Source: Escherichia phage vB_EcoM_F1. Taken from it: a stretch of DNA of 64,000 nt. Location: the sequence record NC_054912.1; one strand, given 5' to 3'. The notes below the pieces were generated by a model that saw only the letters and a list, made by a program, of their open reading frames with translations, did not search any database and was not told the DNA's origin. A program made the position numbers and the translations under genes. Each line of letters opens with the position of its first letter. Positions within the stretch are counted from its first letter, which is position 1. Positions 16,808-20,083 of the stretch are shown piece by piece.

Positions 16808-17596
<789 letters not shown>

Positions 17597-17698
17597 TCAT
17601 TTATTGCAGCAAAAAACGAATTATATAATTCTTCATCATATGTATTTGATAGTAATACTAACACGTTTTGCGATAAATATTAATTTAAAGGAGGACAT

Positions 17699-17899
17699 AT
17701 GGTACAAAAATTAATGGCACTTGTTAATGCCATAAAAGGTAATAAGAAACGTATAGCTTTTACTATTTCTGCTATGATAGGAATTTTACTTTGGAATTTT
17801 GTTTTATCGCCAGTTGCTATTGCTCATGGCGTTAGTATTCCAGTAGTTACTCTTGATACATTCGTAGATTTAGCATTTGCTTTAGTTGGGTTAATTTAA
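17699..17899 (+). CDS. candidate small membrane protein (66 aa, two hydrophobic segments) on the opposite strand
   Basis: AAAGGAGGA Shine-Dalgarno about 4 nt before ATG; lies in the dam-61 intergenic gap; stop overlaps gene 61 stop. Confidence 0.45.
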   Translation: MVQKLMALVNAIKGNKKRIAFTISAMIGILLWNFVLSPVAIAHGVSIPVVTLDTFVDLAFALVGLI

Positions 17900-18924
17900 A
17901 TCTTAGCATATTTAGATAACCGCATTTTAGCCATCAACCCCTGGGCAATATTATTTTTCATATATTCCATAATTTGTTCAGGGGTTGCACCTTCCTTTCT
18001 AATCATATCATTAACATCTTTTGATTTCCAGGGAGATTTATCCCAAAACATAACCCTTTCTCCTGCATCAACTAATTTAGTCATTCGTTTGATAGTGTCA
18101 GGGTGACGAGGTTCATTATCTAAAACCCACACTCGTCTATCTTTAAATGGAACAACTTCTAGGTCTAATTGACCACCCGTAATAGCTATACCATTTTCAA
18201 TAAAAAGTGAATCTATAGGTCCTTCTAGAACATATACATCACCATCTTTAACCCGTTCGACTCCATAGATTTTTGTTGCCTCAGGATAAGCTTTGATGGT
18301 GATATATTTTTGAGGAGCATCTTTCTTTAATGCACGTCCTTGAAAAGACTCAGCTTTTCCATTAGCATTATAAATTGGAATAACAAGACGAGGCTCAGAA
18401 ATTTCCTTTTTATATGTTCCCGGTGCTATGCTATTAACTAATTTAGGCCATTCGGTTGTAAACCAAAGATATTTCCATTTATCCTTTGGAATACAACGAG
18501 CTTTTACATATTTTATAATTGGATGGTCTTCCGACAGTTTATCTAATCTAACACATGACGGAAGAGATTTAATTATTTTCTTCTCAGGTTGTTTAGGAAG
18601 TTCTTTAGGTTTTTCTACTGGACGACTTTTACCTTTTTCTTTTCTTATTTCAAAGATATACTCACGATATAAATCAGGTTCAAACTCCTTTAAATATATT
18701 CCGATTGGTGCATGATAGTTACAGTTATAACAATGAATATTTCCTTCATTATTATCGCCATAATACCATCCACGGGCTTTATTTTGATCGGTTTTTGAAT
18801 CTCCACAAACGGGACATCTAAACCGTAATTTAAAAGTTGAACTATTATTTACTTGTGCGAATTTAGGTAAATGAGCCAATGCACGGTATGCAAACTCATT
18901 ATCAATCCAAGGTATTGATGACAT
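17896..18924 (-). CDS. 61: DNA primase (gene 61)
   Basis: 342 aa; N-terminal zinc ribbon CPVCGD...CYNC; TOPRIM region; recognised as T4 gp61. Confidence 0.9.
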   Translation of the reverse strand: MSSIPWIDNEFAYRALAHLPKFAQVNNSSTFKLRFRCPVCGDSKTDQNKARGWYYGDNNEGNIHCYNCNYHAPIGIYLKEFEPDLYREYIFEIRKEKGKSRPVEKPKELPKQPEKKIIKSLPSCVRLDKLSEDHPIIKYVKARCIPKDKWKYLWFTTEWPKLVNSIAPGTYKKEISEPRLVIPIYNANGKAESFQGRALKKDAPQKYITIKAYPEATKIYGVERVKDGDVYVLEGPIDSLFIENGIAITGGQLDLEVVPFKDRRVWVLDNEPRHPDTIKRMTKLVDAGERVMFWDKSPWKSKDVNDMIRKEGATPEQIMEYMKNNIAQGLMAKMRLSKYAKI

Positions 18925-19091: not shown

Positions 19092-19137
19092 ATTAACCTC
19101 TATTCATAAAAGCATTAAAAATTTGGTCATCAATAGA
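19089..19137 (-). repeat. 49-bp direct repeat, copy 1 (spans stop of 19093..19449 and start of downstream ORF)
   Basis: catattaacctctattcataaaagcattaaaaatttggtcatcaataga; 46/49 identical to copy 2. Confidence 0.6.
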
Positions 19138-19449
19138 TGGAATAGCAACCTTTTCGGCATCATTTAGCAAATCATTAATTTCATCAGATAGCATAACACA
19201 TGTGCCTTTATTTCCTGTAATTGTTACTGCACAATTACGAACGTTTTCTTTATCAAATTTTAGGTTAATATTTTCGTAGTGAAAATCCTTTAATGCCGAA
19301 TATATCTTTAAAATGAAATTGTCTTTTACTACAATAAACCCAACCTCACTATTAAAACGTGGTTCATGGAAACTGTAATAAACCTTTTCATCTATAAAAT
19401 CGTATGAAATTTTTTCCATTTTTAAATATGAAAATTCAGAACTATACAT
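19093..19449 (-). CDS. hypothetical protein (118 aa) with one G.IFV.KDN.I domain
   Basis: shares domain motif and C-terminal tail SIDDQIFNAFMN with the next ORF. Confidence 0.55.
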   Translation of the reverse strand: MYSSEFSYLKMEKISYDFIDEKVYYSFHEPRFNSEVGFIVVKDNFILKIYSALKDFHYENINLKFDKENVRNCAVTITGNKGTCVMLSDEINDLLNDAEKVAIPSIDDQIFNAFMNRG

Positions 19450-19495
19450 ATTAACCTTTATTCATAAAAGCATTAAAAATTTGATCGTCAATAGA
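19447..19495 (-). repeat. 49-bp direct repeat, copy 2
   Basis: catattaacctttattcataaaagcattaaaaatttgatcgtcaataga. Confidence 0.6.
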
Positions 19496-20083
19496 AACTT
19501 TTACTTTAGGCTGTTCTTCAAACGTTAATTCATATCCACATATTACAATTTTGTGATCGATACCAAAATACACAGAAGCAATATTATTAATATTATTTTC
19601 AGTGAAATCTAAATCAACATCAATATCTTTTTGACTAACGCTCAAAGGATAATTAATACGAATAATTCGATTATCTTTAACAAAGATTCCACCGACATAC
19701 TCTGTGCTGCGTTTAAAGTTTACACGTTTCCTAAATGAAAAATATTCAGGCTCTTTATGGGCTCGACTCATAGGGCTTAAAGTGTATTCCGAATATGAAA
19801 TATCAAATCCTACACCTTCAATATGAGCCAAAGTGTCATGATTAAACCAATTATAATCGTATGCCAAATCCATTAAATTGTAATATGTGAAAGGCACCGG
19901 ATTAACATCATATGTTGTACCTTTAAAATCTGCCCAGGCAACGATTTCGTTATCTTTAACAATTACAAAAATTGTGCCAATAAGATATCCACGGTTATTT
20001 TCATCAGGCGTTATATTATAACATTGTGCATCAGGAAATTTACCGTATTTAAACGGTGGATTTTTGTGCATATAATAAATCAT
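19451..20083 (-). CDS. hypothetical protein (210 aa) with two G.IFV.KDN.I domains
   Basis: internal duplication; same C-terminal tail as 19093..19449. Confidence 0.55.
   Translation of the reverse strand: MIYYMHKNPPFKYGKFPDAQCYNITPDENNRGYLIGTIFVIVKDNEIVAWADFKGTTYDVNPVPFTYYNLMDLAYDYNWFNHDTLAHIEGVGFDISYSEYTLSPMSRAHKEPEYFSFRKRVNFKRSTEYVGGIFVKDNRIIRINYPLSVSQKDIDVDLDFTENNINNIASVYFGIDHKIVICGYELTFEEQPKVKVSIDDQIFNAFMNKG

What the first reader, a model, noticed from the sequence alone, without database searches (positions are those of the whole stretch)
17687..17899. Plus-strand small membrane-protein ORF between dam and gene 61 in an otherwise minus-strand block
A 66-codon ORF on the opposite strand sits in the 310-bp gap between dam and gene 61. 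It has a near-consensus Shine-Dalgarno (AAAGGAGGA), encodes two hydrophobic helices, and its stop overlaps the gene 61 stop in a palindromic TTTAAA. I do not recall a T4 gene here. Convergent small membrane proteins in phages are often superinfection-exclusion or host-takeover factors.
Basis: seen in the sequence. Interest (0 to 1): 0.55.

Follow-up and report, generated by a model that had tools for sequence, protein, structure and literature searches.

The report
Conserved late small membrane-protein gene
The small opposite-strand ORF next to the T4-type primase gene is a real, conserved gene for a 66-residue membrane protein that is probably made late in infection. It is missing from the T4 reference annotation but is already listed as a hypothetical protein in hundreds of related phages, and its function is unknown.

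Summary
The ORF (17699..17899, +) is exactly as described. The window is Escherichia phage vB_EcoM_FN (MZ170041.1), where the ORF is already annotated as hypothetical protein FN1NEW_0032.

- **Known family.** It belongs to PHROG 2024 (function unknown). It is RB69ORF029w / RB32ORF030w / VR7ORF033w. T4 itself has it at 94% identity, unannotated.
- **Real coding gene.** dN/dS is 0.11-0.49, codon-position differences are about 31/12/44, indels come in multiples of three, and Gaprivervirus carries a tandem paralogue. In eight T4-like genera a homologue sits convergent to the gene 61 stop, usually with a 4-nt stop overlap.
- **Probably late.** In 13 of 14 loci a late-promoter core NATAAATA ends 13-22 nt before the start codon. 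That heptamer occurs only 4 times on the window's + strand, against about 16.5 expected. All T4 early and middle transcription runs the other way.
- **Membrane protein.** It has a basic N-terminus, one strong TM helix (about 19-42) and a marginal C-terminal acidic amphipathic helix. W32, N33, P38, G44, P48 and V50 are invariant.

The idea of early superinfection exclusion or host takeover is not supported. The function remains unknown, and the finding is of modest interest.

The parts
17672..17679 (+). GATAAATA, a variant T4 late-promoter box (consensus TATAAATA at -13..-6). The predicted transcription start is near 17685.
   Evidence: NATAAATA ends 13-22 nt upstream of the start codon in 13 of 14 homologous loci from 8 genera, despite divergent flanks. 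ATAAATA occurs only 4 times on the + strand of the 64-kb window, against 16.5 +/- 4 expected. The same 8-mer is annotated as a promoter in phage Lutter. Variation at -13 is common in T4-like late promoters (PMC2988020; PMC1524935). No transcript data were available.
17687..17695 (+). Shine-Dalgarno sequence AAAGGAGGA
   Evidence: Read directly from the sequence. A GGAGG or AGGAG core is kept upstream of the start in all homologous loci.
17699..17899 (+). 66-codon gene for a small inner-membrane protein (PHROG 2024; RB69ORF029w family). It has a basic N-terminal helix (2-14), a TM helix (about 19-42, with invariant W32 and N33), a conserved loop (G44, P48, V50) and a C-terminal acidic amphipathic helix (52-63).
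   Evidence: ORF; annotated as FN1NEW_0032; phrog_2024 E=8e-31; dN/dS 0.11-0.49 and codon-position bias; invariant residues; hydropathy; AF2 model, pLDDT 72.6.
17896..17899 (.). TTAA, where the converging stop codons of the small gene (+) and gene 61 primase (-) overlap
   Evidence: The same 4-nt overlap is present in 11 of the 15 family ORFs listed, including the unannotated PEi20 ORF (L016).
17714..17733 (-). Terminator-like hairpin followed by a T-run on the minus strand, inside codons 6-12 of the small gene. It is a candidate terminator for gene 61 transcripts.
   Evidence: A terminator is annotated at the equivalent place in phage fPS-65. It was not found in RB69 or WG01, so it is lineage-specific and does not explain conservation of the ORF.
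17896..18924 (-). Gene 61 (DNA primase), the convergent neighbour. A late plus-strand transcript would run antisense into it.
   Evidence: ORF and annotation. No plus-strand intrinsic terminator was found between 17900 and 22454. The antisense read-through is inferred, not shown.

Best explanation
This is a genuine, vertically inherited gene of enterobacterial T4-like phages. It belongs to PHROG 2024 and is the orthologue of RB69ORF029w. It encodes a 66-residue inner-membrane protein expressed late in infection.

**Proposed course of events (inferred).**
1. After replication begins, gp55/gp33/gp45-directed RNA polymerase starts at the variant late promoter GATAAATA (17672-17679).
2. This gives an mRNA with a leader of about 14 nt and a strong Shine-Dalgarno sequence.
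3. The product inserts N-in, guided by five Lys/Arg before the TM helix.
4. That places the invariant W32-N33 and the P38-x-A40-x3-G44-x3-P48-x-V50 segment in the periplasmic leaflet and juxtamembrane loop.
5. A short acidic amphipathic helix lies at or beyond the periplasmic face.

**Most likely mode of action (inferred).** The protein binds a membrane partner helix-to-helix. An invariant Asn within a TM helix is a classic driver of TM-helix association. The target would be a late envelope process. Lysis timing or control (holin T, RI, spanin) or membrane integrity are my leading guesses, at about 20%.

**Possible secondary effect.** No terminator follows the gene, so the late transcript should continue antisense into gene 61.

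**What is shown.** The ORF is protein-coding, conserved, syntenic, and has the promoter motif and hydrophobic architecture described.

**What is inferred.** Late transcription, topology, the partner and the function.
For: **Identity.** The window matches MZ170041.1 at 100%, and the ORF is annotated there.

**Family.**
- phrog_2024, E=8e-31, full length.
- The divergent 'type B' proteins hit the same PHROG.
- tblastn finds the ORF in 691 phage records: about 500 at 80% identity or more, and 190 below 60%.

**Coding selection.**
- Pairwise dN/dS is 0.11-0.49.
- Differences by codon position are, for example, 31/12/44 (chi-square p=1.3e-4).
- Indels are 3 or 9 nt.
- There is a tandem paralogue in Gaprivervirus at 45% identity, E=2e-10.

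**Synteny.** The gene is convergent to the gene 61 stop in eight genera, while its upstream neighbour varies. The genera are Tequatro-, Mosig-, Gapriver-, Dhaka-, Marfa-, Mosuguk-, Gelderland- and Kanagawavirus.

**Late promoter.**
- NATAAATA is present in 13 of 14 loci, ending 13-22 nt before the start codon.
- The heptamer is strongly depleted elsewhere: 4 observed against 16.5 expected on the + strand.
- On the minus strand, four of its five copies are followed within about 35 nt by an SD-like purine run and an ATG, including the one upstream of soc.
- T4 early and middle transcripts are all counterclockwise, whereas late transcripts can have either polarity (PMC2988020).

**Membrane character.** Hydropathy and charge distribution, the AF2 helices and the invariant residues.
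Against: - I could obtain no transcript, ribosome-footprint or mass-spectrometry evidence. The T4 dRNA-seq TSS table of bioRxiv 10.1101/2024.04.04.588121 is not held.
- The first promoter base is G, A or C rather than T in most lineages, so the promoter may be weak. CGG4-1 has only ATTAAATA.
- T6 and PST carry ATT in place of the ATG. A few genomes have frameshifts. The gene is therefore probably dispensable under some conditions.
- The topology of the C-terminal helix is ambiguous.
- The AF2 model has only moderate confidence and rests on 5 sequences.
- Nothing ties the protein to lysis or to any specific partner. That part is a guess.
Confidence: 0.75

Rival explanations
1. The element's main function is RNA-level. 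A late convergent promoter drives antisense transcription, or transcriptional interference, into gene 61 to shut down primase synthesis late. On this view the small peptide is secondary.
For: The stop-to-stop overlap leaves no intergenic space. No plus-strand terminator was found for about 4.5 kb. The convergent junction with gene 61 is kept in eight genera while the upstream side is rearranged. T4 is known to transcribe both strands at several sites at different times (PMC2988020).
Against: Amino-acid-level purifying selection, invariant residues and a retained paralogue show that the protein itself is selected. A promoter alone would not require a 66-codon ORF with a strong SD. The two roles are not mutually exclusive.
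Confidence: 0.1
2. This is the first reader's reading: an early-acting superinfection-exclusion or host-takeover membrane factor, analogous to Imm.
For: It is a small membrane protein in an early-gene neighbourhood that also holds sp (spackle) about 2 kb away. Small phage membrane proteins often have such roles (general knowledge).
Against: The strand is wrong for T4 early or middle transcription (PMC2988020). No plus-strand sigma-70-like promoter lies upstream. The conserved upstream element is a late-promoter core. There is no similarity to Imm, Sp or any PHROG, Pfam, NCBIfam or PADLOC family with a known function.
Confidence: 0.06
3. It is a holin or pinholin-like, or antiholin-like, lysis protein, as one UniProt entry labels a family member.
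For: Its small size, TM helix and predicted late timing fit. UniProt names the OE5505 homologue 'Holin'. The invariant polar Asn in the TM could mediate oligomerisation (inference).
Against: It has no charged hydrophilic C-terminus; the protein ends in ...ALVGLI. It matches no holin Pfam or PHROG. T4-like phages already have holin T with RI and RIII. The 'Holin' name appears to be an automatic label; other family members carry obviously wrong transferred names such as 'DNA packaging ATPase' and 'dCTP pyrophosphatase'.
Confidence: 0.06
4. It is a spurious ORF. On this view the conservation reflects non-coding functions of the gene 61 3' region, the dam promoter region or a terminator.
For: The ORF is absent from the curated T4 reference annotation. 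A minus-strand terminator-like hairpin lies within it. Chance plus-strand ORFs of 95-102 aa occur nearby.
Against: Substitutions have three-base periodicity, dN/dS is well below 1, and indels preserve the frame. The protein is recognisable at 20-27% identity across genera, with six invariant residues besides the initiator Met. The hairpin is not conserved outside Tequatrovirus. The ORF persists whether or not dam is present.
Confidence: 0.03

Closest known systems
PHROG 2024 / RB69ORF029w, RB32ORF030w, VR7ORF033w (hypothetical proteins of T4-like phages)
   Same: Full-length HMM match (E=8e-31). It has 48-54% identity to the VR7 and RB69 proteins. Position and orientation are the same: plus strand, convergent on the gene 61 stop.
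   Different: Nothing material; it is a member. The family has no assigned function and I found no publication on it.
T4 Imm (immunity protein; small inner-membrane superinfection-exclusion factor)
   Same: Both are small phage-encoded inner-membrane proteins of T-even phages with hydrophobic helices (general knowledge).
   Different: Imm is an early, counterclockwise gene. This ORF is clockwise with a late-promoter core. No sequence relationship was detected: phrog_2024 was the only significant PHROG hit.
Class II holins and pinholins (e.g. phage 21 S21 68, about 70 aa with 2 TMDs) and the T4 holin/antiholin set (T, RI, RIII)
   Same: The size class, membrane location and predicted late timing are shared. 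An invariant polar residue within the TM helix could support oligomerisation.
   Different: It lacks the charged C-terminal tail typical of holins. The second hydrophobic helix is marginal, and non-hydrophobic in type B relatives. It has no sequence or fold match to holin families. T4 already has a complete lysis cassette.
T4 late genes embedded in the early region (e.g. soc, with a TATAAATA promoter)
   Same: There is a short leader, a strong SD and an ATAAATA box about 20 nt upstream of the ATG. The soc promoter in this window looks the same.
   Different: soc is counterclockwise with a perfect TATAAATA. This gene is clockwise and has G, A or C at -13 in most lineages.

Membership tests
PHROG 2024 (RB69ORF029w family) | Significant full-length match to the family HMM | tested here: met
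   E=8.1e-31, residues 2-66 against profile positions 1-65 of 65. Type B relatives also hit it.
PHROG 2024 (RB69ORF029w family) | Conserved genomic position: plus strand, convergent with the 3' end of gene 61 | tested here: met
   This arrangement holds in all 14 loci examined. The 4-nt stop overlap is present in 11 of the 15 family ORFs listed.
T4 late gene | TATAAATA-type box about 1 helical turn upstream of the start site, with no -35 element | tested here: met
   GATAAATA (7 of 8) at 17672-17679. NATAAATA is conserved in 13 of 14 loci, and the motif is depleted elsewhere. Variation at -13 is documented.
T4 late gene | gp55/gp33/gp45-dependent transcript appearing after replication starts | not testable with these tools
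   The T4 TSS tables are not held.
Holin (class II / pinholin-like) | Highly charged hydrophilic C-terminal domain | tested here: not met
   The C-terminus is ...DLAFALVGLI, with no basic or hydrophilic tail.
Holin (class II / pinholin-like) | Two bona fide transmembrane domains | tested here: inconclusive
   TM1 is strong. The second helix is marginal in type A (Hessa sum about 6.5) and clearly non-TM in type B (about 13).
Holin (class II / pinholin-like) | Sequence or fold similarity to a described holin family | tested here: not met
   No Pfam hit. The only significant PHROG is phrog_2024. There was no PDB fold hit, and the only supported BFVD hits (ranks 1-3) are family members.
Holin (class II / pinholin-like) | Lethal membrane-hole formation that releases endolysin | not testable with these tools
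   Requires expression and lysis assays.
Superinfection-exclusion factors of T4 (Imm, Sp) | Early expression from sigma-70 or MotA promoters, counterclockwise | tested here: not met
   The orientation is clockwise. No plus-strand sigma-70-like site lies upstream. All early and middle transcripts are counterclockwise (PMC2988020).
Superinfection-exclusion factors of T4 (Imm, Sp) | Sequence similarity to Imm or Sp | tested here: not met
   No PHROG other than 2024 scored significantly. The profile found no paralogue among all the window's ORFs.
Sec signal peptide (cleaved secreted peptide) | Basic n-region, 7-15-residue h-region, and an AXA site after a helix breaker | tested here: inconclusive
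   There is a basic n-region and a P38...A40-I-A42|H43 site in type A. However, the h-region is about 22 residues, and AXA is not conserved in type B (AATQ, AASQ). An anchor is more likely than a cleaved signal.

The most novel reading that the evidence does not exclude
T4 and its enterobacterial relatives carry a previously unstudied late microprotein, absent from the T4 reference gene list. In this reading it is a functional component of late envelope control, for example a TM-level modulator of holin T or lysis inhibition, or a blocker of a membrane-acting abortive-infection effector. In addition, its unterminated convergent late transcript acts as an antisense switch that turns off primase (gene 61) expression. 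One compact cassette would then couple a protein function and an RNA function.
Probability: 0.1. Interest if true: 0.6.

Novelty: already known. Interest (0 to 1): 0.3.

Why it matters
T4 is the reference for this whole phage group, and omics and knock-down screens that use its reference gene list will miss this gene. RB69ORF029w carries no T4-similarity note in its record, and T4's records annotate no gene at this site. A conserved, probably late, membrane microprotein in a very well-studied phage is a cheap and well-defined target for deletion and tagging experiments. Adding it to the T4 annotation would correct comparative-genomic counts. Beyond that, nothing here points to a new kind of system.

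Tried and rejected
- **Family libraries.** Pfam, NCBIfam and PADLOC scans gave no hits.
- **Structure databases.**
  - The PDB sequence-profile search gave only an insignificant membrane-protein hit (E=0.56).
  - The Foldseek search against PDB found nothing.
  - The search against BFVD found only family members, one of them auto-named 'Holin'.
- **Wider homologue searches.**
  - The profile search of 1.84 billion cluster representatives found only 6 clusters, all in this family.
  - The profile search with types A and B combined found 116 proteins of about 41-74 aa (most 62-74). The named ones come from T4-like phages or from host-genome assemblies, and none has a credible functional name.
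- **Literature.**
  - Searches for the ORF names, accessions or PHROG id returned nothing.
  - Searches for T4 Ribo-seq or small-protein work returned nothing relevant.
  - A check of whether an unmapped r or star lysis locus might correspond showed only that rIV = sp.
- **T4 TSS data.** The data in bioRxiv 10.1101/2024.04.04.588121 could not be read because the supplementary tables are not held. Miller et al. 2003 (PMC150520) is also not held.
- **Rejected: the minus-strand hairpin explains conservation of the ORF.** The hairpin is absent in RB69 and WG01.
- **Rejected: the ATT start in T6 is typical.** It occurs in only 5 of 465 records, all T6 or PST.
- **Paralogues in the window.** An HMM search of all six-frame ORFs found none.

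Full report
**What is there.**
- The window is identical to Escherichia phage vB_EcoM_FN (MZ170041.1, Tequatrovirus), with the same coordinates.
- The ORF runs from ATG 17699 to TAA 17897-17899 on the + strand and has 66 codons.
- AAAGGAGGA lies at 17687-17695.
- The ORF sits in the 308-bp gap between dam (16808-17587, -) and gene 61 (17896-18924, -).
- The two stop codons share TTAA at 17896-17899.
- The phage's own GenBank record already annotates the ORF as hypothetical protein FN1NEW_0032.

**Is it known?**
- The T4 reference records AF158101.6 and NC_000866.4 list nothing between dam and gene 61.
- T4 nevertheless encodes the same protein at 17738-17935, at 94% identity.
- tblastn finds it in 691 phage records.
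- It is annotated as RB69ORF029w (54% identity), as VR7ORF033w (48% identity, 'similar to RB32 ORF030w'), and as 'hypothetical protein' in hundreds of Tequatrovirus genomes.
- It matches PHROG 2024 (unknown function) over its full length, E=8e-31.
- Pfam, NCBIfam and PADLOC have nothing.
- No paper mentions it under any of its names or accessions.
- RB69ORF029w carries no 'similar to T4' note in the RB69 record, and T4's own records have no gene there.

**Is it a real coding gene?** Yes.
- I compared nine orthologues from Tequatrovirus, Mosigvirus and Gaprivervirus.
- Pairwise Nei-Gojobori dN/dS is 0.11-0.49.
- In the deep comparisons, synonymous sites are near or at saturation while about half the residues are kept.
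- Differences fall 31/12/44 on codon positions 1/2/3 for window against RB69 (chi-square p=1.3e-4).
- The indels are 3 nt (RB69, VR7) and 9 nt (OE5505).
- Gaprivervirus UPEC01 carries a second, tandem copy at 45% identity over the core, E=2e-10.

**The paralogous 'type B' form is widespread.**
- It is the only copy in each of these:
  - Dhakavirus (WG01)
  - Marfavirus (Marfa)
  - Mosugukvirus (PM2)
  - Gelderlandvirus (CGG4-1)
  - Kanagawavirus (CIP9; PEi20, where it is unannotated)
- It is always on the strand opposite gene 61 and abuts the gene 61 stop.
- Both types hit PHROG 2024.
- Across the superfamily, W32, N33, P38, G44, P48 and V50 are invariant. K16, A40 and G64 are nearly so.
- Profile searches of the large protein collections find only proteins of about 41-74 aa (most 62-74). 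Those with source names are from T4-like phages or host-genome assemblies.

**When is it expressed?**
- The upstream neighbour varies: dam in T4, a 186-aa ORF in Lutter and OE5505, gene 56 in RB69, T6 and VR7, and other small ORFs in Marfa and CIP9.
- Even so, 13 of 14 loci keep NATAAATA ending 13-22 nt before the start codon. Marfa and CIP9 have a perfect TATAAATA.
- This is the T4 late-promoter box. The review of T4 late transcription states three relevant points (PMC2988020):
  - the box sits at about -10, and A at -13 and other single deviations occur among the 50 listed T4 sites;
  - variant promoters are used;
  - all early and middle transcripts are counterclockwise, while late transcripts have either polarity.
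- In other T4-like phages the T at -13 is poorly conserved (PMC1524935).
- The motif is informative in this genome. ATAAATA occurs 4 times on the + strand and 5 times on the - strand of the 64-kb window. A first-order Markov model expects 16.5 +/- 4, with a minimum of 6 in 200 simulations.
- Four of the five minus-strand copies are followed within about 35 nt by an SD-like purine run and an ATG, including the one upstream of soc.
- No sigma-70-like promoter lies upstream on the + strand.
- One annotator has already marked this 8-mer as a promoter, in phage Lutter.
- I therefore infer a late gene with a transcription start near 17685 and a leader of about 14 nt.
- This remains an inference. The T4 dRNA-seq TSS table that could settle it is not held.

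**What kind of protein is it?**
- Five Lys/Arg lie in residues 4-18.
- A strong hydrophobic segment covers residues 19-42.
- The loop HGVSIP follows.
- Residues 48-66 are hydrophobic by Kyte-Doolittle but carry D53 and D57, one helical turn apart. Type B has E, H and S at the corresponding positions.
- The simple Hessa sum for residues 48-66 is about 6.5 kcal/mol in type A and about 13 in type B.
- AlphaFold2 gives helices 2-14, 16-42 and 52-63 (5-sequence alignment, mean pLDDT 72.6).
- The positive-inside rule puts the N-terminus in the cytoplasm.
- The most conserved positions (W32, N33, P38, A40, G44, P48, V50) then sit in the outer leaflet and the periplasmic juxtamembrane turn.
- The C-terminal helix is more likely interfacial or periplasmic than a second TM span, so 'two hydrophobic helices' is only partly right.
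- An A-I-A|H site after P38 resembles a signal-peptidase site. However, the h-region is too long and the site is not conserved in type B.

**How it probably works.**
- *Shown:* it is a conserved, selected, membrane-type microprotein with a late-promoter motif, locked to the 3' end of gene 61.
- *Inferred, late membrane action:* it acts late in the inner membrane, probably by TM-helix association through the invariant Trp-Asn and the juxtamembrane turn.
- *Inferred, partner:* a role in lysis timing or envelope integrity is my leading guess, at roughly 20%. Nothing in the data singles out a partner.
- *Inferred, antisense RNA:* no plus-strand intrinsic terminator follows the gene for about 4.5 kb, so a late transcript would run antisense into gene 61. 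That could add an RNA-level effect on primase expression.
- *Dispensability:* the gene looks dispensable in some lineages.
  - T6 and PST carry ATT in place of ATG; this is seen in 5 of 465 records.
  - Occasional frameshifted copies exist.

- The existence, membrane nature and protein-level conservation of the ORF are supported.
- The suggested early roles (superinfection exclusion, host takeover) conflict with the gene's polarity and its promoter signal.
- They also have no support from homology.

**Verdict.**
- This is a real but already-catalogued hypothetical gene (PHROG 2024).
- The new points are three:
  - its omission from the T4 reference annotation;
  - the conserved late-promoter signal;
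  - the eight-genus synteny with two paralogous types.
- Interest is modest.

Noticed in passing
window 17714-17733 (- strand): A terminator-like hairpin (ATGGCATTAACAAGTGCCAT followed by TAATTTTTGT) lies on the minus strand inside codons 6-12 of the small gene, about 160 nt downstream of the gene 61 stop. A terminator is annotated at the same place in phage fPS-65. No equivalent was found in RB69 or WG01.
   Followed up: partly
L008 (UPEC01) 1701-1901; L004 (VR7) about 2200-2470: Gaprivervirus phages carry two tandem paralogues of the small membrane protein, type A then type B. In VR7 the second copy is unannotated, and its reading frame runs on about 70 nt into gene 61 antisense. This may be a frameshift or a sequencing error. 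In UPEC01 the second copy is mis-named 'DNA packaging ATPase'.
   Followed up: partly
L016 (Edwardsiella phage PEi20) 1486-1671: An unannotated 61-aa family member has CATAAATA 15 nt upstream and a 4-nt stop overlap with gene 61.
   Followed up: yes
L003 (T6) 1501-1503; Yersinia phage PST: The start codon is ATT instead of ATG in T6 (three independent records) and in PST. The T6 annotation instead starts at Met6, which has no SD. Either a rare AUU start is used or expression has been lost in this lineage.
   Followed up: partly
whole window, both strands: The heptamer ATAAATA is strongly depleted: 4 copies on + and 5 on -, against about 16.5 expected per strand. Most surviving copies sit just upstream of an SD and ATG. 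This suggests selection against stray late promoters in the early region.
   Followed up: partly
window 19093-19449 and 19451-20083 (- strand): Two adjacent ORFs of 118 aa and 210 aa end in nearly the same C-terminal motif (SIDDQIFNAFMNRG and SIDDQIFNAFMNKG). T4 has a single gene 61.2 here, so this looks like a partial duplication or an extra 61.2-like gene.
   Followed up: no
between gene 56/dam and the small gene: L001, L002, L003, L004, L005, L011, L013, L017: The DNA upstream of the small gene's promoter is an indel hotspot. It holds dam in T4 and FN, dam plus a 186-aa ORF in Lutter and OE5505, nothing in RB69, T6 and VR7, and other small ORFs in Marfa and CIP9. The junction with gene 61 stays fixed throughout.
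   Followed up: partly
public annotations of family members: PHROG 2024 members carry several clearly wrong transferred names: 'putative head morphogenesis protein' (T6), 'DNA packaging ATPase', 'dCTP pyrophosphatase', 'thymidylate synthase' and 'Holin'.
   Followed up: no
L009 (ECCR664) 1457-1653: The family member is split by a 1-nt change in an A-run (aataaaagaaaac, against aataaaaagaaaac in RB69). The record is a 134-kb assembly, so this is probably a homopolymer sequencing error.
   Followed up: partly
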